A DNA stretch of 64,000 nucleotides from a virus. This document shows positions 437 to 26,175 of the stretch, piece after piece (the stretch's first letter is position 1; each line of letters starts with the position of its first letter). Location: positions 48,459 to 112,458 of IMG/VR virus record IMGVR_UViG_3300033064_006579, one strand, 5' to 3'. Under the pieces are notes generated by a model, which did no database searches, was not told the origin of the DNA, and was given only the letters and a program-made list of their open reading frames with translations. A program made the position numbers and the translations under genes.

Positions 437-1011
437 TTTTTAGTCAGATTAAATCCAGCGATTGGCTCGTTTTTATCCAAACACTTTGACGCCTTGAGCA
501 TGGCAGATGTGATACTTCCATTATCCAAAACATAGAAATCCCTGTCTTTGAGGTTGATATACAGACAGGCAAAGGCGTGGCCACTGACGATTACAATCCC
601 GATATGATCGTTAGAAATCCCTTCTTTTCTCAGAAGCGCGTATTTCAAAATTGCCTGCCCCTCACAATCTGCCCTCCCTCGATCAAGGGTTTCCCTTGAG
701 GTTTCCCAGTAATCCCTTTCACCCCAGCCGATAATGTCGGGCTCGTATCTTATCTCAAGATTCACGTGGCGATTAATCCTGCGAGCGATTTCTATCATTT
801 TGTTTTTCGATATCTTTTTTACCGAATAGATATTTGTCGAAGTTTTACCCTTCTCTCTTTTAATCCAGTCATCGATCTTGGCATGGTAATCACCGGCATA
901 AGTGTTTGAAAAACGCCTTGGATTAATCTCGACCTTCTTCCTGAAAAGGGCGAAAATTGTGTCTTTAATTTCTTTGAGTATGAGGATTAAATATTTCATC
1001 TTTTCGCTCAT
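415..1011 (-). CDS. Transglutaminase-like cysteine peptidase (C93/BTLCP, LapG-like)
   Basis: WGERDYWET..ETL..GRADCEGQAILKY..L, GHA and YVLDN motifs give a LapG-type Cys-His-Asp triad. Confidence 0.85.
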   Translation of the reverse strand: MSEKMKYLILILKEIKDTIFALFRKKVEINPRRFSNTYAGDYHAKIDDWIKREKGKTSTNIYSVKKISKNKMIEIARRINRHVNLEIRYEPDIIGWGERDYWETSRETLDRGRADCEGQAILKYALLRKEGISNDHIGIVIVSGHAFACLYINLKDRDFYVLDNGSITSAMLKASKCLDKNEPIAGFNLTKKWSYGGT

Positions 1012-1892
1012 TAATTATTATTATCAATCAAACAGGTGCTATCCCAAATCGACCAGTAAATATCGGCCTTCATCTCTCTATTATTATTCGTGGCATCTCG
1101 ATAGATCTCTGGCGCCGCGTCGCTAAGGGTTAGTGTAAGTGCCGCTGCATGAGAAAGTCTTTTGTTTGCAGGAAAATCAGACCATTTAGTGGGCTGTCCA
1201 CCGGCACCAGACCCGGTGTTCCCTTCAATGAATCCGGCTCTTGTTACACCGTCGGCAGCGCTCGACCACATCGCGATATACAAAATAGTATTCGTAGCGG
1301 GAATATCAGTAGTCCATGTACTAATAGATGTTGTTCCAGCCATAGCCTCAAGATTCGCAGCAACAGCTGTTCTTCTTCTCATTATATCAGACCCGGCCCA
1401 CTGGATGAGGGCTTCGTAATCCTCCGTTGGGTTCCAGTTTTCAACTTTGAAAATAATTGTCCAGGTCGATAAGCCGGAAAGCAAATCCCTAAAACCTGTA
1501 GTCGTGGTGAAATAATAAGTGTTGCCATCCAAAGATCTTGGTATCCCCGCTGGCATGTTACCCACCTCAGTCCACGTTAGGTTAGGTGCGACAACAGTAC
1601 CAGTCGCAGAATAGCCAATATCGTCGTCTCCTATATTTACTGCATCATGAAAAATACAAAAGTCTACTTCTGTGAGGCTCTCTTGACTATCCTGATTCCA
1701 ATCTGCATAAAGGATTCCTCCTTCGACATCTCTACTCAATCTATCGCCAGGCATGAGCCTTGTGCCAAAACCCCGGACAGGATCTTTCGTAACTTCCCAA
1801 ATGTTGCTACGATTACCAAGCTCGATGCATTCCTTATTCGACGGCTTAATAATTCCAGCCCGTCTTGTCAGGGTCGAAGTCATCCTTCCCAT
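1011..1892 (-). CDS. Putative tail-associated/receptor-binding protein (beta-rich, possibly LamG-like C-terminus)
   Basis: Position after tail-tip genes; Thr/Trp/Gly-rich; start refined to ATG at 1892 just after the upstream stop. Confidence 0.5.
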   Translation of the reverse strand: MGRMTSTLTRRAGIIKPSNKECIELGNRSNIWEVTKDPVRGFGTRLMPGDRLSRDVEGGILYADWNQDSQESLTEVDFCIFHDAVNIGDDDIGYSATGTVVAPNLTWTEVGNMPAGIPRSLDGNTYYFTTTTGFRDLLSGLSTWTIIFKVENWNPTEDYEALIQWAGSDIMRRRTAVAANLEAMAGTTSISTWTTDIPATNTILYIAMWSSAADGVTRAGFIEGNTGSGAGGQPTKWSDFPANKRLSHAAALTLTLSDAAPEIYRDATNNNREMKADIYWSIWDSTCLIDNNN

Positions 1893-1893
1893 T

Positions 1894-2292
1894 TTATCGC
1901 TCCTCGCCACCCATAACCATATAACCAATTGTGGTACCGCCGCCAGCGACATCCCCGCTATTCAAATGCCATATCTGAATGCTGTCGTTTTGATCGCCGA
2001 AAATAATTCCCGGCACCCCGCAGTCGATTATAAAGGTTTCGTTAGTAACCAAACTTTTCGTAAAAAATTGATTTGTAACACACGGTTTCCCAAGAGCGGT
2101 CGCGCTATCCGGCACGGCAAATAACTTGACAGATGTCTCGGAGTAATCGAGGCAACCGTCGTAGGGCACGTGAAGCCAAATTTGCCTAACAAAACTGGTG
2201 ACTCCAGATCCATTCTGAAAAATCGCGATCGTTGTCCCTGCCGTAGTAACCCCTGACATCTCAGCCAGAATTTTATGATCGTATGCAGCCAT
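1894..2292 (-). CDS. Putative virion (tail) protein
   Basis: 132 aa, beta-strand-like; SD GGAG upstream; in tail operon. Confidence 0.55.
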   Translation of the reverse strand: MAAYDHKILAEMSGVTTAGTTIAIFQNGSGVTSFVRQIWLHVPYDGCLDYSETSVKLFAVPDSATALGKPCVTNQFFTKSLVTNETFIIDCGVPGIIFGDQNDSIQIWHLNSGDVAGGGTTIGYMVMGGEER

Positions 2293-2304
2293 TTCTATTT
2301 CCTC

Positions 2305-3054
2305 CTATGCTAATCCGTATTTTTTGTGATCTGACAAAGTGTCCGCAGGTGACAGGACCTTTTGAACTGTCACCCCACCCGAACCATCAGCAACCAAGGC
2401 CATGCTCGTCCCAGCATAATCTCTCGATGTCGCCGAGTTCGAGAAAATCCCACGAGTCCACGGTATATTTCTGTGAAAGTTTTCTATGCTCTGACCAAAC
2501 TCTGGCGTCGTCATACTCACGTCGATAACGGCGTCCTTGACGTTGATGGTTGTCGTGGTTGCTGCGTATGTGACCGCCGTGACGTACGAATATTGCGGGG
2601 CATTAGCCACTCCATTGAATTTTATGGCCCTTCCGACTGTGTAGACGGCTCGGACGTCACCACCCTCCTTCCATTGCGTCGTGGAGTGGTAATCCCACGG
2701 AGTCGTCCCCGACGTCCACCAAGCACCGGCTGGCGACGTTCCCGACAGGGTGCCGTCCTCGTTTATCGAAACATCAAGTCTGGCATCAAGAGATGAATGC
2801 GATCCGCGAGCATTGGAAACCTCTGTCTCAATTGGTGTATTCGCATATGTCCACTGCCATGTAGAGCCAGAGTAAACCCTCAAGATTTGATCTGTGCTTT
2901 GAAACCATGGTCTACCTGTCTCTGGAGAACCCGGTTCAGAGGCCCCAACAAATAAGGTGGCACAAGCGTCTATGTGATTCCTGATTATTGCATAGAGCTC
3001 GCCAAAAGTCGTAGTGCCCGTCGCCGGATTTGTATTCGTATAAGTCTGTCCCAT
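2305..3054 (-). CDS. Putative tail fibre protein
   Basis: Follows gpJ-like gene; GRPWF...LRVYSGSTW and EVSNARG.HSSLDARLD motifs typical of fibre N-termini. Confidence 0.6.
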   Translation of the reverse strand: MGQTYTNTNPATGTTTFGELYAIIRNHIDACATLFVGASEPGSPETGRPWFQSTDQILRVYSGSTWQWTYANTPIETEVSNARGSHSSLDARLDVSINEDGTLSGTSPAGAWWTSGTTPWDYHSTTQWKEGGDVRAVYTVGRAIKFNGVANAPQYSYVTAVTYAATTTTINVKDAVIDVSMTTPEFGQSIENFHRNIPWTRGIFSNSATSRDYAGTSMALVADGSGGVTVQKVLSPADTLSDHKKYGLA

Positions 3055-3319: not shown

Positions 3320-6300
3320 TTAATACCCCTTGATAAATAAATCTATCTGTCCACTTTGTTTTGCACCAGCGTCATCGTAAAGCGTGATATAAAAATCTGT
3401 TAGGGTCTTATTTTTAATCATGACGTAATACGGATCTGATACGACCGATGGAGAGACCAAGTAATTGACAAGAAAATTTAAGCTAAAATCAGTTGATAAA
3501 TCAAAAGTCGATCCCGATGCCCCGACAAGCTGGCTGTTAAAGGTATAATTTGTTTCAGGCACATCAATCCATGTATAAATGCTTGTAAATGCGAGAGCAG
3601 TAAAATTACTGTCCAGATTAAACCTATCCTTACGTTGAAAATATCTAAACGACGCCTGCACAGGAGAGGCTTGATATGTCGTCCAGCTCAGGGCTGTCAA
3701 TGGGGATGAGCCTGAAACTCTATAAAAAGTTTGGTGTGACGATTCGTCTGTAATTTCCGTATCCGTATCCGCTGGATAGGTCTGATCCGTCCTGCTCGGA
3801 TAGGTTCGATCTGTGAACCGTAGGATTTCACTCTCATAATCTTTGAATAATCTCAAGGTGCCGGTTATCGATTTCGTCAAGTCTCTTGTCGGCGAAATAT
3901 AATATCCCTCCGTTTTAGTCGTTCCAGTATATTCGGTTAACGACGTGCCTGAATCGACCCACTTAGAAACGCCACTCCCGACATCGAGAAGGGTATGAGG
4001 AACATGGAGGCCGGGGGTGTTTCCAGAGTGAACCCAAACAAGATTGTTTGTGACATTAGACGCCGAAAGGTCACCAGTGACAGAGGAGGCGACTCCGTTT
4101 ACAAAATCATCGAGTTCTTCTTTCTCGTAGACTATATTTATGATGTCCGCTATGCCAGAAACCACCACTGTTATCGTAGACCCGGTAGATGATTTATTGC
4201 CAGAGTTATCTATCGCCTTAATATGCCATTTGAATGTTCCATCATAAGTGAGTTTGTGAGTATATGTGTTTGCAGAAACCTCCTTTACGATCACGACTCC
4301 ACTCATCCACGTCGGCCCCTCTCTGATTTCATATCCTCGCCTGTCGACGTCGGCAACATGATCCCACCTCATAATCAAACTCATGCCATCTTGAACACCA
4401 ATAAAACCAGTGACATTCGCTGGAGGAGCGTACTTCCATAGAATCGTAATCACACTTTTTATTACATTATTCGAATCGGGAGAATGTCCCCTATCTGCAA
4501 GGATATCGCTACCGCAAATCGCAATCTGATATGCATGTTGATATTGCCATGCATGAGTCGATATATATCCCAAATTTTTAGTCGCGCCGAGAAATTCCCA
4601 GACAGAGTCTGTCACAGAGGAATCTTTACGATATATATCCCACTTTGCAAGCTTGCGCTCATCATAGACTACGTAATCCCAAGTCATGTGAACCTCGGAA
4701 CTATAAACTCCGGCGACTTCCGACTTCAAAACTTCATTAATGTGAACATTAGTAGCGATTGGAATTGCTTGAAGAGCACTTGAATTCCAAGTTGTCGGAA
4801 GCGATTCCGTATAAAGACTCGCGTTATACTCAACGGCACTTATAGTCCTTTTCAGGTCCTGAGAGCGAGAGATTCCAATTACCTTAAACAACTTAAATTC
4901 AGAATTCTGAACGCCGAATGTAAATAAATCGTTCTCGGCCGGATTAGATGTCCAATTCGAACTAACCGTCAGTTTATTAGTTGTCGCGCTCGAAGTGGTG
5001 ACGGTCCTATTTTCAACAGTGTCGTCGGCATGACGAATATAAACAATATAAGTAGACGAGCCATCCAGCGTAAGTTGCTGATCGATTGTCACTGTATTAT
5101 TAGTTGAGTCTAAAACTCTGCCACCATATCCCCACTGCGGCAAATCATGTTGGACCCGAATCACATCTCCTAATTGACAGGCGATCGCGTCAACGTCGAC
5201 ACCAAACTCAATGGAACGAACTAAATATTTGTTTAGGTTTAGCCTATAAACCGCCTCTCTGTAGGCCTGTTGGTATGACGTGCACCCGTATAAAACTAAC
5301 GATGCCTTTTTCTCAACGCCACCCTCTACCCAATCGTTGCCGTAAACTTGTATAATCTCTCGTTGGAAATCTCTCGCTTTATCGAAATAAGTTACCTCAA
5401 AGATATTCGCTCGGTCTTCGAGCGCGAGAAAAGTCTCTTTGAACGAATCCCGAACAATGTTCGAAACATTGAACATCTGGACAGGATCGCCACTTTTATC
5501 TACGACACAAGAAAATTTAGTCCCCCTCATTATTACAATGCCACGTCCGACTTGAGCAACATGTACCAAAGCATCCCACATACTCATTTGCGAATCAAAT
5601 ACTATGTTGATGATCGCCCTCGGCACCCCATTAATTTTTACATTGCACCAATCTGCCCATTCTGAAAAGGCAGTATAATCCATCCTCGCCGGAGCAACAC
5701 CGTCATAACCTTTGACTTGAAGATTATATACGCTACCATCATAACTAATATCGAGAGTATAATATGGGCGAACAAGCATGTCATAGCAAGCCCACGCCGG
5801 ATTATCTGCTGGTTTTGGCTCCCAAACTCCGGTTGTTGGGTTGTAAATAGGCACAATGTTTCTAATCACTTCGCAGGTTACGTTCGGAACCGCTCCCGCC
5901 AGTTGGTTGGTTGCAAGAGCGCGAACACCAAGGAGGGCAGTATATGGATATGCAAAATCATCGGGGATTATCTGCGCGATCCCACCAAGATACAACGTGT
6001 TTTCATATCGCCCACCAGTCCCGGCAACGGCAAGTTTTTTAAGCCTTACTTCATATGATCCGGCAGAAAGATCTCTCACATCGAAGCTACGCCTCAAAGG
6101 GCCTCTTCGAGCACCGATGATATTAATAGCTCCAAGAGCGCCACCCGTATTGACAGTTCTTGTAATGCTCGAAAACCATTCCTCGACGTCGGCAAGAAAG
6201 GCGCCAGAATCCATCTTGTTTCTAACCTCTACAACCTGCCTATTGAGACCAGTGATTTCAACCCACACACCCATTGTATCGTAAGTTCCGAAATCTTGCC

Positions 6301-7585
6301 AACCACCCGACTGGTCGGGGTAACCACTTCCGACTCTATATTGAATCGTTGCCGTAAGCGCGGGGTTCCAGACTGGTTCCAGATCGACTTGCATATACGG
6401 GGTGCGGATTGGGAAAGACCACCATCCCGGCTTTATCTTTGGGCAACTCGGGCAATTTGGCAATCCATATTGAGAAGCATATTGAAATTTAACCGATTGA
6501 CATTGACTCGTAAATTTAAAGCCCTGCGCGGTATAGACAAAATCAGAATAGGTTTCCTTTCCACCCTCACCGGCAACTATCGAAGTCCAAGCTGCATCGC
6601 CCACCATACGGTATTCAATTGACATCTCGATATTGGTACTATCTAACCCACCCTGCCCGTTAACATAATATAGGCCGTTGGGGCAAACTATATCGATTCT
6701 CAGCCCCTCTGTGGCGTCGCCCTCGACAGTCGCGGTGACATATGCATCGGTCGTGATTTCTCTCGAATACGACTTGTAATTATAAGTGTCGCCAAAATAT
6801 TCAACCGGCTCTTGATTCCTAACCCCTAATTTAATCCTCTGCCAAACATTATCAAAATTTTCGATTGCCTCGTCGTTAATTTTAATATTTGCTACGCCTT
6901 GAATACAACCATCGTGCAATGCGAGTAAAACGTTATAATATTGATCGTCGCCAACGGTATCGATATAACGATTTATAATGGTTCCGCCGACTCTGCGGGT
7001 TCCATAGATTCTCGGCAAAGGGTGACCTTGGGTAGTCATATTTCTCATGTCGCCCCACCCATAAGTATCAGTTTGCGCTTCCATTGATCCGGCACCAATC
7101 CCGGATGCTCCTCCAATACCGGGCAACGCCGGATATGAAGGTGGCGCATTAGGAAACAGAGCGTTAATTGCAAACGAGCCCATCATTCCAATCGCCATTA
7201 TCGCAACTGCACCCCAACCTGCTCCGAGAGCGGCTGGTGCCGTTAGGTATGGAGCGACAACCATGAGGACAACCATGAGGACAACCATCGCGATCGTCCT
7301 ACCCCAGTTCTTATCCCCCTCCCCCTCTCCTCCGCCTCCTCTTGGCACTGGTACGACGACTATATGATCATTAATATTCGGACAAACCGCGATTAGTTCA
7401 GAATCATCAAGCACTCTTCCGTTGATGCTGTATTTTACATCGACATCTCTCATAGAAACGATATTTTTATCAGCGACATACTCGGAAATCGGCTTGGCGA
7501 CCTCGTGCTCAAGCCAATAATCGGTCCTCTTCGAGATATCGAACATACTGCTTACGACAGTTAATTTTACTTTGTTATACGACAT
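3320..7585 (-). CDS. Tail tip/host-specificity protein (lambda gpJ-like, with gpI-like N-terminal part)
   Basis: PLPRIYGTRRVGG, NPAWACYDML, GDVIRVQH, AVEYN motifs and FN3-like repeats; start refined to MSYNKV at 7585. Confidence 0.9.
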   Translation of the reverse strand: MSYNKVKLTVVSSMFDISKRTDYWLEHEVAKPISEYVADKNIVSMRDVDVKYSINGRVLDDSELIAVCPNINDHIVVVPVPRGGGGEGEGDKNWGRTIAMVVLMVVLMVVAPYLTAPAALGAGWGAVAIMAIGMMGSFAINALFPNAPPSYPALPGIGGASGIGAGSMEAQTDTYGWGDMRNMTTQGHPLPRIYGTRRVGGTIINRYIDTVGDDQYYNVLLALHDGCIQGVANIKINDEAIENFDNVWQRIKLGVRNQEPVEYFGDTYNYKSYSREITTDAYVTATVEGDATEGLRIDIVCPNGLYYVNGQGGLDSTNIEMSIEYRMVGDAAWTSIVAGEGGKETYSDFVYTAQGFKFTSQCQSVKFQYASQYGLPNCPSCPKIKPGWWSFPIRTPYMQVDLEPVWNPALTATIQYRVGSGYPDQSGGWQDFGTYDTMGVWVEITGLNRQVVEVRNKMDSGAFLADVEEWFSSITRTVNTGGALGAINIIGARRGPLRRSFDVRDLSAGSYEVRLKKLAVAGTGGRYENTLYLGGIAQIIPDDFAYPYTALLGVRALATNQLAGAVPNVTCEVIRNIVPIYNPTTGVWEPKPADNPAWACYDMLVRPYYTLDISYDGSVYNLQVKGYDGVAPARMDYTAFSEWADWCNVKINGVPRAIINIVFDSQMSMWDALVHVAQVGRGIVIMRGTKFSCVVDKSGDPVQMFNVSNIVRDSFKETFLALEDRANIFEVTYFDKARDFQREIIQVYGNDWVEGGVEKKASLVLYGCTSYQQAYREAVYRLNLNKYLVRSIEFGVDVDAIACQLGDVIRVQHDLPQWGYGGRVLDSTNNTVTIDQQLTLDGSSTYIVYIRHADDTVENRTVTTSSATTNKLTVSSNWTSNPAENDLFTFGVQNSEFKLFKVIGISRSQDLKRTISAVEYNASLYTESLPTTWNSSALQAIPIATNVHINEVLKSEVAGVYSSEVHMTWDYVVYDERKLAKWDIYRKDSSVTDSVWEFLGATKNLGYISTHAWQYQHAYQIAICGSDILADRGHSPDSNNVIKSVITILWKYAPPANVTGFIGVQDGMSLIMRWDHVADVDRRGYEIREGPTWMSGVVIVKEVSANTYTHKLTYDGTFKWHIKAIDNSGNKSSTGSTITVVVSGIADIINIVYEKEELDDFVNGVASSVTGDLSASNVTNNLVWVHSGNTPGLHVPHTLLDVGSGVSKWVDSGTSLTEYTGTTKTEGYYISPTRDLTKSITGTLRLFKDYESEILRFTDRTYPSRTDQTYPADTDTEITDESSHQTFYRVSGSSPLTALSWTTYQASPVQASFRYFQRKDRFNLDSNFTALAFTSIYTWIDVPETNYTFNSQLVGASGSTFDLSTDFSLNFLVNYLVSPSVVSDPYYVMIKNKTLTDFYITLYDDAGAKQSGQIDLFIKGY

Positions 7586-7973
7586 ATCTATAGTAACCGT
7601 GAATCTTTCTTTTCCAATACGGATGATCGAACTTCTCAATTATCGACATAGTTTTTTCCATAGTGTGAATAAAGGTTTTTTCATCTATGCAAACCCCAAA
7701 ATGATGATCGAAGCCTGGGTTTATTCTTAAAACAACTAGGCAGCCCTTCTCTGGCCCGCCGAGCTTGACCCATTTTCCGCTATCTCTTTCCTCTTTGAAT
7801 TTAGATGAAATAACCTTCTTACAAAAAGCCCCTATATCAAAATCAGGCATTTTCACGTCACTAAGGATTTCGGATGCACATATCACCAAGCCCCAACAGT
7901 CAAGGCCGGTCTTAGGGTTGCGGCCACTATCGACAAATGGGATGCCAATCAAATCGAAAATATTACTACTCAT
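7575..7973 (-). CDS. NlpC/P60 tail-tip protein (gpK-like)
   Basis: LIGIPF..GR....GLDCWGL...HHFGV...FIH. Confidence 0.85.
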   Translation of the reverse strand: MSSNIFDLIGIPFVDSGRNPKTGLDCWGLVICASEILSDVKMPDFDIGAFCKKVISSKFKEERDSGKWVKLGGPEKGCLVVLRINPGFDHHFGVCIDEKTFIHTMEKTMSIIEKFDHPYWKRKIHGYYRYVV

Positions 7974-8626
7974 TATTTTAATCCCTTTAGATATACTCCG
8001 CCCTCTGGAATGCCAGGGAAGGCTCCGAAATATCTTATATTCCCATATTTTCTACAATCATCTATCGTTTTGGAACAAACTGTTCCGGGCGTCGAGCCAG
8101 AGTAACCACATTTATTCCCGCGGAAACTCCATCGACAAAAATTCTTGATATATCGATTTGGAGGATGCATAACTGACGATTGGTTTCTCGCAGACAACCC
8201 AAAAGTCGCCCACTGCGTATCGGCGTAGGATGTAGTGCAAATAAACGACTCTTCGATCTCCGCCGAAGTTAGACCAAGGTGATCGCTATGAACGACATAT
8301 AGAGTGACTTCAGAACCAACACCACCTTTTGCTCCATCCATCTCCATGTAGGCCTGCATTGTTCGATTGGCATTGCCTATCCTAATATTGGCGACGGTCT
8401 GTTCGCCCATCCCCTCCTCTTTGGTATCGTCAATATCGAAGGGGAAAGCGTGCCAGGTATAGGTAGTGCCGCTTGTGGGCCAAACGATGCTCTCGGTGTT
8501 TCGACAAAATCGCAGAGTCGTGCTGTTAGGATCCGGGAAAATTACTTTTGCCAGTAATAGCCACGCTCCGCTGGCCTGTAATTTGTTTTTTTCTAGAATC
8601 GCCGCACTACTTAAACTAAGAGCCAC
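7973..8626 (-). CDS. Minor tail protein (gpL-like/DUF1833)
   Basis: AFPFDI motif; C-terminal four-Cys CRW...CGY...CSKT..DC followed by FGAFPGI. Confidence 0.8.
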   Translation of the reverse strand: MALSLSSAAILEKNKLQASGAWLLLAKVIFPDPNSTTLRFCRNTESIVWPTSGTTYTWHAFPFDIDDTKEEGMGEQTVANIRIGNANRTMQAYMEMDGAKGGVGSEVTLYVVHSDHLGLTSAEIEESFICTTSYADTQWATFGLSARNQSSVMHPPNRYIKNFCRWSFRGNKCGYSGSTPGTVCSKTIDDCRKYGNIRYFGAFPGIPEGGVYLKGLK

Positions 8627-8629
8627 GCA

Positions 8630-8995
8630 TTATACCTCTCTTAAATCAATAGATCCGCTAAAGTAATTTTGATTGTAATTCGTAAAACTTATTGAATCGC
8701 TTAAAAATCTGACCTCATATGTCGAGCCACTCGTCGGTTCTGAAAAATTAAAACTTGAAGATCCACCAGTCACGCCACTTTCAAAAAAAGTCTGTAATGA
8801 CACGTAGGAATTCTTTGACATATCTCTCCACGACAATGTAAATTCTTTTCTTGCTCTTGTGAATTTGCCCCTTGTCTGTACGTAACCAGACTCGAACAGC
8901 GTTCTAATCGCAGGCATGTGAGTTGTGATTTTGATTGAATCGTATGCCCTTGAGATTCCGGTCGTACCTGATGGAAAATCTATTGCGCTCGTCAC
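8630..8995 (-). CDS. Distal tail protein (gpM-like)
   Basis: Directly after tape measure; RTLFESGYVQ.R...F.LSW, VRF and REV pattern. Confidence 0.7.
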   Translation of the reverse strand: MTSAIDFPSGTTGISRAYDSIKITTHMPAIRTLFESGYVQTRGKFTRARKEFTLSWRDMSKNSYVSLQTFFESGVTGGSSSFNFSEPTSGSTYEVRFLSDSISFTNYNQNYFSGSIDLREV

Positions 8996-12636: not shown

Positions 12637-12664
12637 GATTTTTATTCCTCCTTTCCATCAAATT

Positions 12665-14887: not shown

Positions 14888-14888
14888 C

Positions 14889-15225: not shown

Positions 15226-15432
15226 TTATGATACCCCTACTTTAAAATCATTTATTTCCAGCCAAATTTTAGTTTTCTGATCGTGTACCCCTACTTTAAA
15301 AGAAGGGTTCAAAGAAAGCGCGAGCGACATTTCCCGTCGTATAATTTCAATAACGCCTACATGAGAAAATTCCGGATCTGCGCCAAGAGGGATTGAATTC
15401 CGTGGATAATCTCCATATATTATCTTTCCCAT
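15226..15432 (-). CDS. Hypothetical protein
   Basis: Tightly coupled 68-aa ORF. Confidence 0.5.
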   Translation of the reverse strand: MGKIIYGDYPRNSIPLGADPEFSHVGVIEIIRREMSLALSLNPSFKVGVHDQKTKIWLEINDFKVGVS

Positions 15433-16565: not shown

Positions 16566-16745
16566 TTATATTGGCCCCCTTAACGGACCGTATAATGATC
16601 CGAATATTATTCCTGTCGGAGCAGAAATCGTCTGCTCGTGCACCACATAAATTGATCCATCTTCCCACACAGGTGTTACAACTGCCCCTGAAGAGGAGAT
16701 AAGAACAGGTGCTCCATTTATCCACTTTATGTCTTTAACTGCCAT
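16566..16745 (-). CDS. Small hypothetical protein (59 aa)
   Basis: Own translation MAVKDIKWINGAPVLISS...YGPLRGPI; abuts both neighbours. Confidence 0.55.
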   Translation of the reverse strand: MAVKDIKWINGAPVLISSSGAVVTPVWEDGSIYVVHEQTISAPTGIIFGSLYGPLRGPI

Positions 16746-20328: not shown

Positions 20329-20565
20329 TTAATTTTTTCTCCTTCTTATTTTTTTATCGTCGTCACCAAGCATTTTTTTAATCTCTTTTAGCTCCTTCAA
20401 TATGAGAATATTCGACAACGATGAGGCCAAAAGCCAGGCTTCGTAACGAGATGTTGGAACGCAAAATTCCTTTCCAACAAAATACCTCTCGTGCCGATTC
20501 ATAAGTCCCACAAGAGCATCCTCGAATTTATCACCACTCCCCTCCTGCTCTCCCATCTCGCTCAT
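20329..20565 (-). CDS. Hypothetical protein
   Basis: Coupled 78-aa ORF. Confidence 0.5.
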   Translation of the reverse strand: MSEMGEQEGSGDKFEDALVGLMNRHERYFVGKEFCVPTSRYEAWLLASSLSNILILKELKEIKKMLGDDDKKIRRRKN

Positions 20566-22574
20566 TTCATATTCCTCTTTTCTTCCTCCGACATCTCTGC
20601 GGGATCAAGGAACATCCCTTTGTCGACATTAAACACCCAGTTATCCGGCAAACTCAAGCGCTTCTTTTCGGTAAGCAAGGTGTTCTCAATGTTTGCTCCG
20701 GCGAGTTGTTGTTGGGCCTTCAGAGATTCTATTTGCAGAGACATTTTTTCAGTCTCGCTCTGAATCAGTCTAATCTGAAGATCCATCTTGTCTCGCTCGC
20801 TAAACATAGTCCGAACTTTCCAAAGAACTCCGTCTTCCACGATTCTCATGACTGCTCTCCCTCCATGATAAGTTGATCGAACACCGACCCCCTCGATCCT
20901 ATCGTTGAGAAGTTGTAACGACGGTTCGAACGTCGGTAAAATATAATGAGACGATTTAAAGAATAACTGCGCCTCGTCAAAAACATTTCTCATCTTATAG
21001 CGACTGAGACCCACGTTGAAAAGCGCAACCTGGAGCGGAGTCATACCATCGAAATGTTGATATATTTTCATTGCATGCGTGAACGACATCAATGGCTCAC
21101 TGTCCATTGTTGCAACACACATGTGAGTATTGTAAATGGTATCGTTAGGAGCGTATTTAAGCGCCTTCATCATGTTCCCATGCTTCTCGTTTGGTCGCCT
21201 ACTCTGACAAAACCTCGCGAAATGATAGGAGGCCAAAATCCTCTTGATAAGACAAAACCATATAAAGGTTATAGCGAATATAGCGACAACGATCGCAAGA
21301 GGGACGCTTCCGTTCAACTCTAAAATTCCTCCGACCGAATGCCGTGAAAGTGCAACAATTGCGCCACAGACAATCCAAAACATCGATGCTGTCGATGGTA
21401 TCCTCAGGGCAAAGAAAAATATGGAATCAACAAGAAATGCCGTCATTGCAGATAAAAGAATCAACATAAACACAAAGCTTTTGCTGCCAGCAACGTCATT
21501 CAAATATTGAAATCCGCAGTAATACATCGCGCCAACAAATGCCATCCACAATGCAAAACCGATCAATCCATATTCAACAATATTTTCGAGAAAATCATTA
21601 TGCACCTCTCTCGGCTGAGGAGTCAAATATCTCTCTGGATCAAGAAAGCCGGGGTATTTATCATTCAGTGCTGCCTGTGCTCGATAGACATCTTTTCTAT
21701 AATGAAGAGGGCCGCCTCCACAAAACAATCTTTCTTTTATCAATACAAGGGCAGAAGCCCAATAGCAGAAACGGTAACGAAGGGTCGCATACCACACCTG
21801 AGCACCCTTCGGATCGATTTTTTTATTCCAAAATGTATCCCAACCTACAATCAATAGATAAACGACTGCAAAAAGACCGAAGATAACCGCGGCAAGGATT
21901 GCATGAAAAATAAATCCAGATATTAATCCATACCTCGATGCGACCGCTGCAAAAAATAGGGCAGAAGCAGCGAATCCTATTTGACCACCCCTCGATCTCG
22001 TTTTAAAAAGAACGTAAATCGCAAACATCGGGATTATAAGGAGCGCTGAATCGTAAGTGAATCCAGCATAGATACCAAGCCATATCATTCCACAAAGCCA
22101 AGAGGCGAGAAAGTTCGGGTTGCCAATTGTCCCAATCGGATTATCTACAGGCCCGCCGCCCTTCAAAGCATTCGGGAATAAATGGTCAACCCCATGCCTC
22201 TGACAATTGGCGTATATAGCGCAAAACGCAAGTGACCAGGCGGCGATGACCGACATCGATCTGATAGAGTCTTCGTTGAAATAAGTGCAGGCGAGTAAAA
22301 AGGTTATAAGCAGTGGGATTTGAAGCCCGATTTCCTTACGAGCATTATGAAGAGGATCAGACCATAGAACGGACATTGAAATGTAAATCGCGAAAAGAAT
22401 GATAATAGTGCTCGGAACGGTTACTGGTACAAGCCCATTCACCGCCCCAAGCACTATACCCGTGGCGGAGAGCAGGGAGACCACGAGCAACTGTGGAAGT
22501 GCGAATCCGTTGAATAGCGTCCTCGGAAGAAATATTAGTGATGCTAATGGCATAGCTGCCAAGACCCATTCCAT
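20562..22574 (-). CDS. O-antigen ligase/O-oligosaccharyltransferase-like (Wzy_C) membrane protein with TPR-like and coiled-coil C-terminus
   Basis: About 12 hydrophobic segments; GTIGNPNFLA, TRSRGG, R...W..A..LIKE..FCGGG and EVHNDFLE..VEYGLIG motifs. Confidence 0.85.
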   Translation of the reverse strand: MEWVLAAMPLASLIFLPRTLFNGFALPQLLVVSLLSATGIVLGAVNGLVPVTVPSTIIILFAIYISMSVLWSDPLHNARKEIGLQIPLLITFLLACTYFNEDSIRSMSVIAAWSLAFCAIYANCQRHGVDHLFPNALKGGGPVDNPIGTIGNPNFLASWLCGMIWLGIYAGFTYDSALLIIPMFAIYVLFKTRSRGGQIGFAASALFFAAVASRYGLISGFIFHAILAAVIFGLFAVVYLLIVGWDTFWNKKIDPKGAQVWYATLRYRFCYWASALVLIKERLFCGGGPLHYRKDVYRAQAALNDKYPGFLDPERYLTPQPREVHNDFLENIVEYGLIGFALWMAFVGAMYYCGFQYLNDVAGSKSFVFMLILLSAMTAFLVDSIFFFALRIPSTASMFWIVCGAIVALSRHSVGGILELNGSVPLAIVVAIFAITFIWFCLIKRILASYHFARFCQSRRPNEKHGNMMKALKYAPNDTIYNTHMCVATMDSEPLMSFTHAMKIYQHFDGMTPLQVALFNVGLSRYKMRNVFDEAQLFFKSSHYILPTFEPSLQLLNDRIEGVGVRSTYHGGRAVMRIVEDGVLWKVRTMFSERDKMDLQIRLIQSETEKMSLQIESLKAQQQLAGANIENTLLTEKKRLSLPDNWVFNVDKGMFLDPAEMSEEEKRNMK

Positions 22575-23045: not shown

Positions 23046-23453
23046 TTACTCCACAATCAATGCCCAACGAACAGAAAAAGTATTCGTTGTACCAGTTCCG
23101 TGTTGAGTCGATCCTGACTTCGACACAGAAGCCTCCAGTTTGATGAACGGCATGACGGGATTGAATTTTTTTAGATAGGCTCCGTTGGACTGAGGTCCAC
23201 TGACGGATGTGCCAGACTTGACGAGAAAGACGTCGTCCTCCATTGCATAAGTAACGCCTGTCCTCGTGTAGCAACCCTTCCAATAAACGGCTACACTCCC
23301 ACCAGTTCTCCCGCTGTCCCCCTCAACACTGGCAAAGAAATAAGCCTCAGAAATGTCCCTCTTGGCATTGATTAAATTGACAATGGCAGAGCTGACCCCT
23401 GAACCAGGCGTCGCTCCTGTTATACCAGATAAAGTTCCTACTTCGATCAGCAT
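23046..23453 (-). CDS. Putative head-associated structural protein (Ser/Gly/Thr-rich)
   Basis: Downstream of the major capsid gene; five SGx[ST] motifs. Confidence 0.55.
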   Translation of the reverse strand: MLIEVGTLSGITGATPGSGVSSAIVNLINAKRDISEAYFFASVEGDSGRTGGSVAVYWKGCYTRTGVTYAMEDDVFLVKSGTSVSGPQSNGAYLKKFNPVMPFIKLEASVSKSGSTQHGTGTTNTFSVRWALIVE

Positions 23454-23480: not shown

Positions 23481-23915
23481 TTAAGTGCCAATCGCAATAT
23501 AATGGACGCTCACCGCCCCAGAATATGTCACTCCAGCCAGATTCAACTTATAAGGAATAAAACAAACTTGAGTTGCACTACCAAACGGTTGACCATGCAT
23601 TGGGTAAACAGTAACAGCAAATCCGGTCACGTCGGTAAACCCAGCAACCGATTTTGACGACGCCGAAGCGATCACATTATCAATTGTAGTTAGTCCGCAA
23701 CCCTGCCTATCTATCGAACCGCCAGAAACGTCGAGAACTCCAGCCGTCATCTTCTTACCTTGCGCCGTAGCATAGGGCAATGCATAACCATCGGCCATAT
23801 CGACCCTGTTTTTATAGATCGTGACGCCAGAGGGACTGGTAACAAATGTCACTCCAGACGCGATACCCCAGTTCCTCGAATACCTTGTGGTTGCTCCACT
23901 TCTTCTTCTTGCCAT
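23481..23915 (-). CDS. Putative head fibre/decoration protein
   Basis: First gene after the major capsid gene; GLTTIDNVIA...VHYIAIGT; SD GGAGG. Confidence 0.6.
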   Translation of the reverse strand: MARRRSGATTRYSRNWGIASGVTFVTSPSGVTIYKNRVDMADGYALPYATAQGKKMTAGVLDVSGGSIDRQGCGLTTIDNVIASASSKSVAGFTDVTGFAVTVYPMHGQPFGSATQVCFIPYKLNLAGVTYSGAVSVHYIAIGT

Positions 23916-23947
23916 GACTTTTAATCCTCCATTTTCTCATTATTTTC

Positions 23948-23993: not shown

Positions 23994-24019
23994 ACATTCA
24001 CTCACACGAAGTGAAAGTC

Positions 24020-25111
24020 TTACGCGGTCAACTTCAAGCAATGCTTGTCGTCGGTCGCTCCAATCTGCCCATAGAATCGCACTTTGTATTTGAATTTAAT
24101 ATCTCTGTGAAACTCGTCCTCGTGCCCGGCTTTGGCGGTGAAGGTTTGGAGATCCCAAACCTGCGACCAAACATAATCCTCCATGAAATCACCGAGATAC
24201 CAAGTAGAAGTACTCTGGTTGGTGATGTAAGGGCTTGTAAGGGGAGTAAAGGCACCCTTCCAAATATTAACTGCATTCTCAGTTCCCTCAGGTACGAGAG
24301 TTGATTTCTGCATCTGCACAGCCTGAACCCAAAGATCAAACGGGAACAGGGCATAGACATTGGCAGGATCGACGAGAATGTAATCGTCTTCCTCATCTGT
24401 CATATTGTGAAACAGTTTATTCGCCTCAAGTAATCCTTCCTCGCCGAAAGGGGTACTTACTCTCGAATTGATTTTTCTATCACCGGTGGCGGCAACCCTA
24501 TAGAAAGCAGTGGCCACGCCTTCCGGCCTAAATACATTGCTATTAATATCCTGAACCCCCTCGACAATAAGTCTCTCTTTCTTTTGAGCAGCCTTCTTAC
24601 CAATACCCTTGGCTCTGGTAATGACCTGTCCAGTTTTATCGAAATAAATCATTTCCTCGGTCACATCGATGATGCGACCCCACTTAGTATGAGGAACCGT
24701 CACATACTTCTCGGCCATGGTTGCCCGGTTGTACGCCTGACCCTGGACAACTTCGTCCGGGCTTTCAGAGGCATCAAAACCAGCATACGTTTCGACCTCC
24801 ATTTTCGATGGAGAAACCGTAACGAGATTTTGGCCAATCGTAGGAACGGCGTCATACGCCTTGATCAACGTAGAGTTGATCAGCTCTCCCGTGATTTTTG
24901 GGAAGAGGTCGGAAGACACAGCTTCCGAAACGGGTTTTACAAAACCCTGCGCATCGCGCTCGAAAGCATCCCAAATCTCGCGGAGAGAGAAATCGTTTGG
25001 GGTAATATCACCCTTAGAGATCATTTTCCTGATCGTCGCAACCGTTCCGTCGACGCCAAGAGATTCCGCCATATCCCTGAGAGCAACTCCCAATCTATTT
25101 ATCAACGCCAT
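24020..25111 (-). CDS. Major capsid protein (Mu gpT-like, HK97 fold)
   Basis: 363 aa; KWGRIIDVTEEMIYFD, SPYI....WYLGD and KYKVRFYG motifs; follows protease and decoration genes. Confidence 0.85.
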   Translation of the reverse strand: MALINRLGVALRDMAESLGVDGTVATIRKMISKGDITPNDFSLREIWDAFERDAQGFVKPVSEAVSSDLFPKITGELINSTLIKAYDAVPTIGQNLVTVSPSKMEVETYAGFDASESPDEVVQGQAYNRATMAEKYVTVPHTKWGRIIDVTEEMIYFDKTGQVITRAKGIGKKAAQKKERLIVEGVQDINSNVFRPEGVATAFYRVAATGDRKINSRVSTPFGEEGLLEANKLFHNMTDEEDDYILVDPANVYALFPFDLWVQAVQMQKSTLVPEGTENAVNIWKGAFTPLTSPYITNQSTSTWYLGDFMEDYVWSQVWDLQTFTAKAGHEDEFHRDIKFKYKVRFYGQIGATDDKHCLKLTA

Positions 25112-25138
25112 AACTATTTTTCTCCTTCCATAATTTTT

Positions 25139-25660
25139 TTAGGGAACGTCTATGACATTCCCGAATATCCGACTCCACATCCGCATCAGCACTGAGCTCC
25201 GAAAATTGCCGCCGTCCCCGGCGACTCCGATCCAATCTGAGGTAGAACTCGTAATCGCAACTTTCTGGTTGTACAACGTCACCCCCGAACCGGCAGGTAT
25301 GATATAATATAACACCTTGGTGGAGCGTGAATTTCTGAGTGGATATCTGAAAAAACCATCGATATAAACCCCTAATTCCTCAGTCACTCCGCTATCGGAG
25401 TGCCATGCAGCAACACCAAGAAAATTACTGGCCGCAAGCTTCCTATTGCTGGTAAGCGTAAGGATTGAACCCGACACTTTATCAAATGGATAGCCATACC
25501 AATTAGCAGTAGAAGCGCCTCTTTCCCGCAATGCATCGGTTTTATCAAGAAAGACAAAGTCACCCTTATCAATCTCGACATTACCACGAATCTTGACGGT
25601 ACAGATTGGAAAACTGTGCTCCCAAGATTCATTGATATTTCTTCTATCGTAATCGCTCAT
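25139..25660 (-). CDS. Capsid decoration/cement protein
   Basis: I.KGDFVFL...NFLGVA...SGVTE...GFFR; paralogous to 25660-26175. Confidence 0.6.
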   Translation of the reverse strand: MSDYDRRNINESWEHSFPICTVKIRGNVEIDKGDFVFLDKTDALRERGASTANWYGYPFDKVSGSILTLTSNRKLAASNFLGVAAWHSDSGVTEELGVYIDGFFRYPLRNSRSTKVLYYIIPAGSGVTLYNQKVAITSSTSDWIGVAGDGGNFRSSVLMRMWSRIFGNVIDVP

Positions 25661-26175
25661 TAGACCAAAGTGATCATTGAACTTCCAGAGAGCAGGGTCA
25701 TCAGCATGAAATCGACATGCGTTGCGCTTGGCTCATGTTTGACAGCTCTCCCAACTCGGCAACTGTCATGATCCCCACCGTGGCCGATGGAGACGGTAGT
25801 GTTCGAGATAGAAACCCCACCGGTAAAAATGGTTGACGCAGCAACAGTGAGTCCGACTTTACTGAACATACTCGTCGCACTGGTGCCGAGCTTTACCTGA
25901 GCCCTGAAGATTCCAGCGGTAGCAATCGGGATATCCTCTGTAGTTCCAGAGATACTTCCCTTCATCGAAACACCGAGAAAATTCTGCTCGAAGTACGCCG
26001 GTGAAGTGCCATTAAGCTTGGGGTACACAGGGTAGACATAAGAATCGCCAGTTCCACCAACTATGGCATTACCGCGACCCAAAAATATGAACTCTCCTTT
26101 ATTAATCACGTCGTTGCCGTGAACCTTCCCTTTGATCTCTTGGGTATCACCCCTCAAATGTTTTACAACAGGCAT
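25660..26175 (-). CDS. Capsid decoration/cement protein
   Basis: INKGEFIFL...NFLGVS..SGTTE...AGIFR; between scaffold and capsid genes. Confidence 0.6.
   Translation of the reverse strand: MPVVKHLRGDTQEIKGKVHGNDVINKGEFIFLGRGNAIVGGTGDSYVYPVYPKLNGTSPAYFEQNFLGVSMKGSISGTTEDIPIATAGIFRAQVKLGTSATSMFSKVGLTVAASTIFTGGVSISNTTVSIGHGGDHDSCRVGRAVKHEPSATHVDFMLMTLLSGSSMITLV

What the first reader, a model, noticed from the sequence alone, without database searches (positions are those of the whole stretch)
1011..26175. S-G-x-[S/T] motif saturates surface virion proteins: candidate sequon for phage-encoded virion glycosylation
Seen (hand count, approximate): about 40 SGx[ST] sites in about 15 structural proteins. 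Examples: 5 in the 135-aa ORF 23046; 4 in ORF 23481; 2 in each decoration protein; 3 in each tail tube paralogue; 3 each in the distal tail protein, head-closure protein, fibre 2305 and beta-helix protein; 5 clustered in the C-terminal part of gpJ. The tape measure, major capsid, portal, terminase and ligase-like proteins have none, and MuF, protease and chaperone have one each. The two tail tubes keep the motif even where flanks diverge (FSGVSA versus LSGQTT). Known: Ser/Thr O-glycosylation with pseudaminic acid occurs on flagellins, and glycosylated virions are described for some actinobacteriophages. Inference: the cytoplasmic transferases and sugar pathway at 44-64 kb attach a glycan at this motif, giving the particle a glycan coat.
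Basis: partly seen in the sequence, partly recalled or inferred. Interest (0 to 1): 0.9.

Follow-up and report, generated by a model that had tools for sequence, protein, structure and literature searches.

The report
Sugar-attachment motif saturating phage virion proteins
A four-residue motif, S-G-x-S/T, is about five times over-represented on the outer particle proteins of an uncultured 112-kb phage and all its relatives, and it most likely marks where a phage-encoded membrane sugar-transferase, sitting among the particle genes, attaches a phage-made glycan.

Summary
The structural module has 43 S-G-x-[S/T] sites against 8.9 expected (z≈12), and the rest of the genome is at baseline. It is the top hit of an unbiased scan of about 48,000 patterns. 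Ser codons are mixed, so it is not a DNA word, and scrambled orders are not enriched. Lambda, HK97, T5 and Che8 show no comparable excess.

A 50%-identical relative shows 51 against 10.8. All 17 further viral contigs found through the same enzyme, and six more found through the capsid gene, show it too, including in proteins with no homologue here.

It holds a fixed slot in the particle operon across the clade. The published PglS sequon contains S-G-A-S, with the last Ser glycosylated.

The enzyme's lysine/arginine bias is reversed relative to bacterial homologues, and the candidate targets lack export signals. This predicts a cytoplasm-facing active site.

Everything is computational; no glycan has been seen. 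Earlier scan notes reported WaaL-like genes in other phages' head-tail modules, but no sequon.

The parts
20562..22574 (-). Wzy_C-family membrane enzyme, 670 aa, WaaL/PglL/PglS-like. It is the candidate O-oligosaccharyltransferase. It has about 13 TM segments, a large loop at residues 243-336 and a soluble C-terminal domain at 444-670.
   Evidence: Pfam PF04932 scores 59.8 bits against a cut-off of 31.7. TM layout. The equivalents of WaaL R215, R288 and H338 and the HNx9GxxG motif are conserved. K+R bias is reversed in all 27 family members. The C-terminal domain is TPR-like by the Atlas only. It has 0 motif sites.
23046..23453 (-). Jellyroll capsid cement/decoration-like protein, 135 aa, 5 sites. 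It is the most motif-dense protein.
   Evidence: Sites at residues 9, 18, 47, 80 and 113, P 1e-4. AF2 model pLDDT 78, with all sites at a strand end entering a loop. Best TM-score 0.60 to the BPP-1 cement protein 3j4u_H, and matches to the KHP30/40 cement proteins. Family alignment A2.
23481..23915 (-). Small head-associated protein of unknown fold, 144 aa, 4 sites.
   Evidence: P 4.5e-4. No PHROG hit.
25139..26175 (-). Two paralogous decoration-like proteins (25139-25660 and 25660-26175), 2 sites each, just upstream of the capsid gene.
   Evidence: Orthologues in the relative carry 5, 4 and 3 sites, and those in distant clade members 2-3 each.
24020..25111 (-). HK97-like major capsid protein, 363 aa, 0 sites (0.16 expected).
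   Evidence: PHROG 133/4523/371..
12043..13252 (-). Two tail tube paralogues (12043-12636 and 12665-13252), 3 sites each.
   Evidence: AF2 model pLDDT 77 with an Hcp/gpV-type fold. The sites lie at the loop after strand 8-13, at the C-cap of helix 88-98 and in the C-terminal tail. In 22 homologues S14, G15 and T17 are near-invariant while x varies.
14504..15224 (-). Head-tail connector-region proteins (14504-14887 with 3 sites; 14889-15224 with 1 site).
   Evidence: P 5e-4 for 14504-14887.
16745..18667 (-). 640-aa G8-domain (beta-helix type) protein, 3 sites.
   Evidence: Pfam G8 PF10162..
3320..7639 (-). gpJ-like central tail fibre, 1439 aa, with 5 sites confined to residues 1205-1375, beyond the conserved J core.
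   Evidence: phrog_31 over residues 32-1216.. Four of the 5 sites are shared with the relative.
1011..3054 (-). Distal fibre/tail accessory proteins (1011-1952 with 1 site; 1894-2292 with 2; 2305-3054 with 3).
7973..8995 (-). Minor tail proteins (7973-8626 with 2 sites; 8630-8995 with 3).
   Evidence: phrog_18 and phrog_384..
44480..64000 (-). Sugar module, which continues across the contig junction into contig bases 1-6606. It holds PseB-like (59717-60712), PseF-like cytidylyltransferase (58946-59680), NeuB/PseI-like (46515-47288), WbuX amidotransferase (62889-63896), RmlB-like (54502-55593) and PIG-L deacetylase (56712-57461). It also holds GT2 (48291-49142), GT4 (50272-51639), a GT2-radical SAM/SPASM fusion (52544-54502), two B12-radical SAM enzymes (44480-46042, 57604-58977) and a DUF4915 protein (61666-62892).
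   Evidence: Pfam and NCBIfam. A DegT aminotransferase, a GNAT and a sulfotransferase-like protein lie at L011:5422-6606, 3810-4352 and 1512-2678. Orthologues are present in the relative.

Best explanation
S-G-x-[S/T], with x mostly V, T, A or S and uncharged flanks, is the acceptor sequon of a phage-encoded Wzy_C-family O-oligosaccharyltransferase (window 20562-22574). The phage sugar module makes a pseudaminic-acid-like nonulosonic acid and a 6-deoxyhexose. Its soluble GT2, GT4 and GT2-rSAM enzymes assemble a glycan on a lipid carrier at the inner face of the cytoplasmic membrane, with the first sugar-phosphate probably added by a host enzyme. The Wzy_C enzyme then transfers the glycan en bloc onto Ser/Thr of the motif in exposed loops of decoration, cement, connector, tail tube and fibre proteins.

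The targets have no export signals, and the enzyme's charge bias is the reverse of bacterial WaaL-type proteins. So the catalytic loop and the C-terminal domain are predicted to face the cytoplasm, and no flippase is needed.

Shown: the motif statistics, its clade-wide association with the enzyme, the enzyme's family and catalytic residues, the reversed charge bias and the sugar genes. Inferred: that a glycan is attached at all, that this enzyme does it, the topology, the donor, and which hydroxyl is the acceptor.
For: Motif statistics:
- 43 versus 8.8 (z 12), the top of about 48,000 patterns, and not a DNA word.
- Control siphophages of equal S/G/T content have 1.2-2.0 sites per 1000 aa, against 5.2 and 6.4 here. 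SG[TVS][ST] is 32 versus 2.3 here.
- The relative has 51 versus 10.8. In orthologue pairs 19 of 34 sites are shared in register, against a 19% background.
- Clade-wide there are 409 versus 89. SGxT is 6.0x and SGxS 3.2x, single-change variants 1.2-1.7x, and scrambled orders 0.9x.

Exposure:
- All 8 sites in the two models lie at the end of a strand or helix entering a loop.
- The densest protein resembles outer capsid cement proteins.

Enzyme:
- It matches Pfam Wzy_C. The WaaL R215/R288/H338 equivalents are invariant or nearly so in 27 homologues.
- These residues are the ones shared by WaaL and PglL, and pglL genes typically lie next to co-oriented target genes outside LPS loci (PMC3643930).
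- It is the only polytopic membrane protein in the genome.

Association:
- All 17 viral contigs found through the enzyme show the enrichment (z 3.9-12). It also holds in neighbours with no homologue here (74 versus 20.6).
- Every capsid-anchored locus with enough downstream DNA has the enzyme.
- NeuB and GT2 co-occur on the long contigs, while the GT complement varies.

Sequon precedent:
- The PglS minimal sequon is IASGASAATTN with Ser82 glycosylated. The Cys71-Cys93 numbering makes this S79-G80-A81-S82 (PMC8457361; PMC9829042).

Topology:
- K+R on the catalytic side averages 13.0 against 2.0 on the other side in all 27 members. Four bacterial Wzy_C proteins give 9 v 18, 17 v 28, 7 v 17 and 12 v 28.
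- No motif-bearing protein has a signal-peptide-like N-terminus.
Against: - No glycan, glycopeptide or enzyme activity has been observed; the phage is uncultured.
- The link between enzyme and motif is a one-sided correlation within a single clade, because no OTase-less relative exists to test.
- Every characterised Wzy_C-family ligase or OTase acts in the periplasm (PMC9829042). The cytoplasmic orientation rests only on the positive-inside rule applied with a crude hydropathy segmentation, and no dedicated topology predictor or structure model of the enzyme was available.
- No initiating phosphoglycosyltransferase is encoded by any clade member.
- The enzyme lacks the PglL_A motif and has no NCBIfam or PDB sequence match.
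- Thr is preferred over Ser at position 4, whereas the characterised PglS acceptor is a Ser.
- Three soluble GTs are available for a direct route.
- The resemblance to the PglS sequon rests on one example.
Confidence: 0.5

Rival explanations
1. One of the soluble phage glycosyltransferases (GT2, GT4 or GT2-rSAM) glycosylates Ser/Thr of the motif directly from nucleotide sugars in the cytoplasm, as in flagellin or mycobacteriophage virion glycosylation. The Wzy_C protein does something else.
For: Three soluble GTs without TM segments and a complete-looking CMP-nonulosonic acid pathway are encoded. The targets are cytoplasmic. Mycobacteriophage capsid and tail tube subunits are reported to be glycosylated by phage GTs (as cited in PMC12619734). 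This route needs no lipid carrier or initiating enzyme, and none is phage-encoded.
Against: The GT complement varies across the clade (one GT2 in G003; GT2 plus GT4 in G004; three GTs here), while motif and Wzy_C enzyme are constant. No Maf-type transferase is present. The GTs resemble ordinary polysaccharide-chain GTs and lie 25-30 kb from the targets. This route leaves unexplained a catalytically intact, charge-inverted Wzy_C enzyme fixed inside the particle operon.
Confidence: 0.2
2. The motif is recognised by something other than a glycosylation enzyme, or is an intrinsic folding or assembly element favoured in this lineage. The recogniser could be another modification such as phosphorylation, acylation or sulfation, or a chaperone or decoration-binding site.
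For: No chemistry has been observed. The sites sit at a stereotyped structural position, the end of a strand or helix followed by a loop. Several sites lie in generally well-conserved segments. A sulfotransferase-like protein and several radical SAM enzymes are encoded.
Against: The motif occurs in unrelated folds: Hcp-like tube, jellyroll, the gpJ C-terminus and a beta-helix protein. It also occurs in lineage-specific proteins. It is absent from four control siphophages of the same composition. A purely structural turn motif would not be lineage-specific. About a quarter of the genome is glycan biosynthesis, and a protein-glycosylating type of enzyme sits among the targets.
Confidence: 0.15
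3. The Wzy_C enzyme has the normal periplasmic orientation. It either glycosylates virions only after holin lesions open the membrane, or it remodels host LPS or surface proteins, in which case the motif on virion proteins is unrelated to it.
For: All characterised family members act in the periplasm (PMC9829042). Phage-borne Wzy-type enzymes that alter host O-antigen are known (PMC4815439, title and abstract listed). An earlier scan note on another phage lineage favoured envelope remodelling (e1-1069836, unchecked).
Against: The K+R bias is reversed in all 27 members, with a K/R cluster directly after the last TM segment, whereas four bacterial homologues show the normal bias. The phage encodes no flippase. 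The enzyme co-occurs with the motif without exception. Its fixed slot in the particle operon is unlike a serotype-conversion moron.
Confidence: 0.1

Closest known systems
PglS-ComP O-glycosylation of Acinetobacter (minimal sequon IASGASAATTN; PMC8457361, PMC9829042)
   Same: Both are Wzy_C-family enzymes with a large C-terminal soluble domain, which those authors suggest may recognise internal sequons. Both sequons are short and internal, made of small uncharged residues, and contain S-G-x-S, with the last Ser the acceptor in ComP. In both, the enzyme gene lies next to the target gene.
   Different: PglS has a single natural target, acts in the periplasm, and its site is flanked by a disulfide. 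Here there are dozens of sites on at least 16 virion proteins, no export signals, and a reversed charge bias. Thr is preferred at position 4, and no sequence similarity was detectable by phmmer against the PDB or by NCBIfam.
PglL general O-glycosylation systems (Neisseria, Burkholderia, Acinetobacter; PMC3643930)
   Same: One OTase modifies many proteins at Ser/Thr in exposed, low-complexity or loop regions. The catalytic Arg/Arg/His residues are conserved, and the gene lies outside LPS loci.
   Different: The PglL_A (PF15864) signature is absent in all 27 family members. PglL targets are periplasmic or secreted proteins with a loosely defined sequon, whereas here there is a sharp four-residue motif on cytoplasmically assembled virion proteins.
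WaaL O-antigen ligase (E. coli K-12)
   Same: It has the same Pfam domain and a 12-13 TM architecture with a roughly 90-aa loop between TM9 and TM10. R215, R288, H338 and the HNx9GxxG motif align.
   Different: WaaL is about 420 aa with no C-terminal domain, its acceptor is lipid A-core in the periplasm, and its K+R bias is normal (6-9 on the catalytic side against 18). The phage enzyme is 670 aa with a 227-aa tail and the reversed bias.
Mycobacteriophage virion glycosylation (Freeman et al. 2023, as cited in PMC12619734; paper not held)
   Same: It is phage-encoded glycosylation of capsid-associated and tail tube subunits that gives the particle a glycan coat.
   Different: There, soluble GTs are reported to act on C-terminal tails, with no defined sequon and no Wzy_C enzyme. 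Che8 structural proteins show no SGx[ST] excess (14 versus 9.8).
Flagellin O-glycosylation with pseudaminic acid (Maf/FlmG type)
   Same: It is cytoplasmic modification of many exposed Ser/Thr residues of a self-assembling structural protein, using a Pse-type sugar made by PseB/C/H/I/F-like enzymes.
   Different: No Maf (PF01973) is present in the genome. From my own knowledge, flagellin sites have no sequence consensus, and transfer is direct from the CMP-sugar.

Membership tests
Wzy_C superfamily (WaaL ligases / PglL, PglS, TfpO O-OTases) | Pfam Wzy_C domain above the gathering score | tested here: met
   PF04932 scores 59.8 bits against a cut-off of 31.7. All 27 homologues match.
Wzy_C superfamily (WaaL ligases / PglL, PglS, TfpO O-OTases) | Polytopic membrane protein (about 12-13 TM) with a large loop between TM9 and TM10 | tested here: met
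   13 hydropathy peaks and a 94-aa loop at residues 243-336. The layout matches E. coli WaaL analysed in the same way.
Wzy_C superfamily (WaaL ligases / PglL, PglS, TfpO O-OTases) | Catalytic residues equivalent to E. coli WaaL R215, R288 and H338 (PglL R224, R298, H349; PMC3643930) | tested here: met
   In the MAFFT alignment R195, R268 and H325 align with them. R268, H325 and N326 are present in 27/27 members and R195 in 25/27.
Wzy_C superfamily (WaaL ligases / PglL, PglS, TfpO O-OTases) | Catalytic loop on the periplasmic side of the membrane | tested here: inconclusive
   The positive-inside rule predicts the opposite: K+R is 13.0 on the catalytic side against 2.0 in 27 members, while four bacterial homologues show the normal bias. 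This is a prediction from a crude segmentation only, with no experimental or dedicated-predictor result.
PglL-type O-OTase | PglL_A (PF15864) motif flanking Wzy_C | tested here: not met
   No hit at E<=0.05 in any of the 27 members. The enzyme is therefore not filed as a PglL.
Protein O-oligosaccharyltransferase (functional class) | Transfer of a lipid-linked glycan to Ser/Thr of a protein | not testable with these tools
   This needs co-expression with a glycan donor and a target, followed by mass spectrometry.
Protein O-oligosaccharyltransferase (functional class) | Gene outside LPS loci, adjacent to and co-oriented with target protein genes (PMC3643930) | tested here: met
   The gene lies in the particle operon, two genes downstream of the 5-site cement protein (with one small ORF, 22610-22999, between them) and four genes downstream of the capsid gene. 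It holds the same slot in all clade members with enough sequence.
Pseudaminic acid pathway (PseB-C-H-G-I-F) | All six enzymes present above equivalog cut-offs | tested here: inconclusive
   PseB scores 399.5 against 407.75, just below cut-off. The NeuB/PseI-like and PseF-like proteins are well below their equivalog cut-offs. A DegT aminotransferase and a GNAT are present, and no PseG was recognised. The product is a nonulosonic acid, but its identity as Pse is not settled.
Maf/flagellin-type Pse glycosylation | Maf (MptE-like, PF01973) transferase | tested here: not met
   No match in the complete genome at E<=0.01.
Mycobacteriophage-type virion glycosylation | Glycans on C-terminal extensions of capsid and tail tube subunits, added by soluble phage GTs | tested here: inconclusive
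   The tail tubes do end in SGTT, but most sites are internal, and the capsid protein has none. The primary paper was not held.

The most novel reading that the evidence does not exclude
This phage clade has turned a WaaL/PglL-type oligosaccharyltransferase inside out. The enzyme faces the cytoplasm, takes lipid-linked glycans from the leaflet where they are built, without flipping, and writes them onto folded virion proteins at a four-residue O-glycosylation sequon, S-G-x-S/T. That would be the first cytoplasmic en bloc protein glycosylation system, the first sharply defined O-sequon used proteome-wide by a virus of bacteria, and a ready-made tag-plus-enzyme pair for cytoplasmic glycoengineering.
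Probability: 0.35. Interest if true: 0.92.

Novelty: new variant of a known kind. Interest (0 to 1): 0.82.

Why it matters
Virion glycosylation in phages is established experimentally only for some mycobacteriophages, and there without a sequence rule. Here a sharp, statistically overwhelming four-residue motif marks the outer proteins of a whole clade of large uncultured phages. It travels with a protein-glycosylating type of membrane enzyme and a nonulosonic-acid pathway.

If confirmed, this gives three things:
- A predictive sequon for phage glycoproteins.
- A way to find glycan-coated phages from sequence alone, by running an unbiased k-mer scan of their structural proteins.
- A possible exception to the rule that Wzy_C-family transferases work only in the periplasm.

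A glycan coat would bear on phage stability, adsorption, recognition by hosts and grazers, and immune recognition in therapy. A short O-sequon with its own enzyme would also interest bioconjugate engineering, where PglS and PglL sequons are already in use.

Tried and rejected
Alternative causes of the enrichment, all rejected:
- A DNA-level cause: Ser codons are mixed TCN/AGY.
- A composition artefact: shuffles and scrambled motifs.
- Cherry-picking: the motif tops an unbiased scan.
- Paralogy: 38 versus 8.3 after collapsing paralogues.
- A generic property of siphophage structural proteins: lambda 12 v 5.7, HK97 7 v 6.1, Che8 14 v 9.8, T5 10 v 9.3.
- Depletion in internal proteins: their zero counts are at baseline.

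Searches that found nothing:
- Deposited phages gave no match by DNA, capsid protein, tail tube or Wzy_C enzyme. The GT4 gave only partial (<=49% of the query), low-identity (24-30%) matches, and the GT2-rSAM fusion matched only in its GT2 domain.
- The Wzy_C enzyme had no NCBIfam or PDB sequence match.
- No initiating phosphoglycosyltransferase (PF02397, PF00953), no Maf, and no second polytopic membrane protein or flippase was found.
- TPR in the C-terminal domain was not confirmed by Pfam and rests on the Atlas lead only.
- The literature searches found no S-G-x-S/T sequon and no phage OTase for virions.

Tests that could not be run:
- The gain/loss test with OTase-less relatives was not possible, because every clade locus with enough sequence has the enzyme.
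- Freeman et al. 2023 is not held.
- Both structure-prediction jobs went on targets, so the enzyme itself was not folded.
- Complex prediction was not used, because enzyme-substrate pairs are poor candidates for it.

Full report
**Context.** The window is the last 64 kb of a complete 112,458-bp phage genome with direct terminal repeats. All long ORFs are on the minus strand. In the direction of transcription the order is:
- a sugar-biosynthesis module (window 64000-44480, continuing from contig bases 6606-1)
- small genes
- terminase, portal, a homing endonuclease, and a 1697-aa MuF-ADP-ribosyltransferase
- a 522-aa scaffold/protease-like protein
- two decoration-like proteins, an HK97-type capsid protein, and two small head proteins
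- a Wzy_C membrane protein
- connector genes, two tail tube paralogues, chaperones and the tape measure
- distal tail proteins, a 1439-aa gpJ-like fibre and accessory fibres.

- Per-protein shuffles give 8.8+-2.8 (z 12). The rest of the window has 7 against 4.7, and the other 48 kb of the genome about 9 sites in roughly 15,000 aa.
- Reordered or near motifs (GSx[ST], [ST]xGS, SAx[ST], SxG[ST], SGx[AG]) are not enriched.
- In a scan of every tripeptide and gapped tripeptide, S-G-x-T ranks first in the structural set (26 v 4.2, P 8e-13). The next hits are its sub-patterns.
- The Ser is encoded by both TCN and AGY codons, so selection acts on the protein.
- The x position is restricted (T 13, V 11, S 8 of 43). 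SG[TVS][ST] is 32 against 2.3 expected.
- Collapsing the two paralogue pairs leaves 38 v 8.3 (P 4e-14).
- The structural proteins of lambda, HK97, T5 and mycobacteriophage Che8 have the same S, G and T content. They show 12 v 5.7, 7 v 6.1, 10 v 9.3 and 14 v 9.8.
- The zero counts in tape measure, capsid, portal, terminase and the Wzy_C protein are simply at baseline (1.3 expected together).

**Relatives.** Deposited phages have no relative. One full-length relative was found as a 111-kb contig, binned once into a Planctomycetota MAG and once into an 'uncultured archaeon' MAG. Its proteins are 35-70% identical to those here.
- Its structural module has 51 sites against 10.8 expected (z 13), and the rest of its genome 17 against 14.1.
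- Between orthologue pairs, 19 of 34 sites are shared in register, three times the 19% background for three-position identity. Both lineages also have private sites, whose counterparts are often near-misses such as SAVT, TGxT or AGTS.
- In 22 tail tube homologues the first site keeps S, G and T while x varies.

**Where the sites are.**
- The tail tube model (pLDDT 77, Hcp/gpV fold) places its three sites at the loop after the first strand, at the C-cap of the single helix and in the C-terminal tail.
- ORF 23046 folds as a jellyroll (pLDDT 78). Its structural matches include the outer capsid cement proteins of Bordetella phage BPP-1 (TM 0.60, the highest of the listed matches) and Helicobacter phages KHP30/40. 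All five of its sites are at a strand end entering a loop.
- In gpJ the five sites lie beyond the conserved J core.
- I could not compute solvent exposure, because coordinates are not returned.

A hydropathy scan shows one polytopic membrane protein in the whole genome, at window 20562-22574.
- It matches Pfam Wzy_C (59.8 bits against a cut-off of 31.7), the family of WaaL O-antigen ligases and the PglL, PglS and TfpO protein O-oligosaccharyltransferases.
- It has about 13 TM segments, a 94-aa loop between TM9 and TM10 and a 227-aa soluble tail.
- Aligned with E. coli WaaL, the residues R215, R288 and H338 correspond to R195, R268 and H325. According to PMC3643930, these are functionally important in WaaL and conserved in PglL. 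The His sits in an HNx9GxxG motif.
- R268, H325 and N326 are invariant, and R195 nearly so, in 27 homologues of 29-47% identity.
- The PglL_A signature is absent, and NCBIfam and PDB sequence searches find nothing, so this is a separate subfamily.
- The tail looks TPR-like in the ESM Atlas only.
- As described for pglL genes (PMC3643930), the gene is outside any LPS locus and co-oriented with its presumptive targets. It lies two genes downstream of the 5-site cement protein, with one small ORF (22610-22999) between them.

**Association across a clade.**
- Scanning viral contigs with the enzyme alignment gave 17 loci with enzymes 27-50% identical. All 17 show the motif excess in neighbouring genes (z 3.9-12).
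- They belong to one wider clade with the same gene order (capsid 40-73% and tail tube 32-44% identical).
- The excess is not only inherited. Neighbours with no detectable homologue in this phage have 74 sites against 20.6 (z 12.7), including a 908-aa protein with 25 sites.
- Anchoring on the capsid gene instead, every locus with at least 4.4 kb downstream contains the enzyme. The five without it end earlier.
- The long distant contigs carry NeuB and a GT2. GT4 is present in only one of them, and none carries an initiating phosphoglycosyltransferase.
- Pooled over 361 proteins there are 409 sites against 89 expected. SGxT is 6.0x, SGxS 3.2x, TGx/AGx/SAx/SSx 1.2-1.7x, and scrambled orders 0.9x. 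V, T and A are favoured at x, and charged residues are depleted around the site.

**A precedent for the sequon.** The minimal sequon for PglS is IASGASAATTN, with Ser82 glycosylated (PMC8457361). From the published Cys71-Cys93 numbering of the 23-residue segment (PMC9829042), Ser82 is the last residue of S79-G80-A81-S82. This fits a reading in which position 4, S or T, is the acceptor. The alternative is that the invariant Ser at position 1 is the acceptor and position 4 is a recognition element, as in N-x-S/T. That alternative cannot be excluded.

**Topology.** Characterised family members act in the periplasm (PMC9829042), but virions assemble in the cytoplasm.
- None of the motif-bearing proteins has a signal-peptide-like N-terminus. 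Earlier scan notes on other phage groups reported export signals on such proteins.
- In E. coli WaaL, short cytoplasmic loops hold about 18 K+R and periplasmic ones 6. In the phage family, the loops homologous to WaaL's cytoplasmic loops hold on average 2.0 K+R. The catalytic-side loops plus the first 25 residues after the last TM hold 13.0, in every one of 27 members.
- With a de novo analysis, four bacterial Wzy_C proteins carrying the His motif give 9 v 18, 17 v 28, 7 v 17 and 12 v 28. Phage members give 14 v 3, 16 v 3, 19 v 3, 19 v 2 and 21 v 4. A few are less clear where the segmentation is poor.
- By the positive-inside rule the catalytic face is cytoplasmic. That would also explain why no flippase is encoded. 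This is a prediction, not a measurement.

**The sugar module.** It encodes:
- a PseB-like dehydratase (just under the equivalog cut-off), a DegT aminotransferase, a GNAT, a NeuB/PseI-like synthase and a PseF-like cytidylyltransferase
- a WbuX-type amidotransferase, an RmlB-like dehydratase, a PIG-L deacetylase and a sulfotransferase-like protein
- two B12-radical SAM enzymes, and GT2, GT4 and a GT2-radical SAM/SPASM fusion.

No Maf-type transferase is present. I did not check that note, but it makes a DNA target for this module less necessary.

**Verdict.** The motif is real, specific and under selection on virion proteins of a whole clade. The best explanation is a sequon for glycosylation by the operon-embedded Wzy_C enzyme, using a phage-built glycan, probably on the cytoplasmic side.

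My estimates are:
- about 0.85 that the motif is a trans-recognised site
- about 0.65-0.7 that the modification is a glycan
- about 0.5 for the full model.

Direct transfer by the soluble GTs (0.2), a non-glycan role (0.15) and a normally oriented enzyme acting after lysis or on the host (0.1) remain open.

Literature searches found no report of such a sequon or of a phage OTase for virions. The scan's own notes record WaaL-like genes in other phages' head-tail modules, but not a sequon.

Noticed in passing
window 28849-33942 (-): A 1697-aa MuF protein fused to an ADP-ribosyltransferase exoenzyme domain (PF03496, residues 646-808), with much further sequence of unknown function. It is probably a capsid-packaged effector.
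   Followed up: no
window 415-1011 (-): A 198-aa transglutaminase-like cysteine protease of the BTLCP/C93 type (PF06035), at the distal end of the late operon.
   Followed up: no
window 52544-54502 (-): A fusion of a GT2 glycosyltransferase with a radical SAM/SPASM-type domain (652 aa), conserved in the relative at 42% identity. Two B12-binding radical SAM enzymes are also in the sugar module. Their chemistry on the glycan is unknown.
   Followed up: partly
window 19315-20328 (-) and 34827-35813 (-): HNH/NUMOD3 homing-endonuclease genes are inserted inside the structural and packaging modules. The first lies two genes downstream of the Wzy_C gene.
   Followed up: no
L045:14996-17722 (+); L006:8216-11029 (-): Clade members carry very large lineage-specific virion-module proteins packed with the motif. 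One is 908 aa with 25 sites; the relative's is 937 aa with 11, mostly SGVT. They look like repeat proteins, possibly glycan-display fibres. This phage's counterpart (15432-16565, 377 aa) shares only a 49-residue stretch and has no sites.
   Followed up: partly
L003 / L004 (VRUG01000009.1 and CAZRLL010000001.1): The same roughly 111-kb phage genome is binned into a Planctomycetota MAG and into an 'uncultured archaeon' MAG. At least one of these is a binning artefact, so neither is reliable evidence of the host.
   Followed up: no
window 22610-22999 (-): A 129-aa ORF with a C-terminal hydrophobic segment lies between the cement protein gene and the Wzy_C gene. It has no BLAST counterpart in the relative.
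   Followed up: no
window 46515-47288 (-): The NeuB/PseI-like synthase is short: 257 aa, matching only about positions 3-250 of the roughly 330-position equivalog models. It appears to lack the usual C-terminal part. Homologues on other clade contigs lie in open frames of 259-368 aa.
   Followed up: no
L027 (phage lambda 1-23000): Lambda structural proteins show a mild SGx[ST] excess (12 v 5.7, z 2.7) but none for SG[TVS][ST] (2 v 1.6). This was treated as noise.
   Followed up: no
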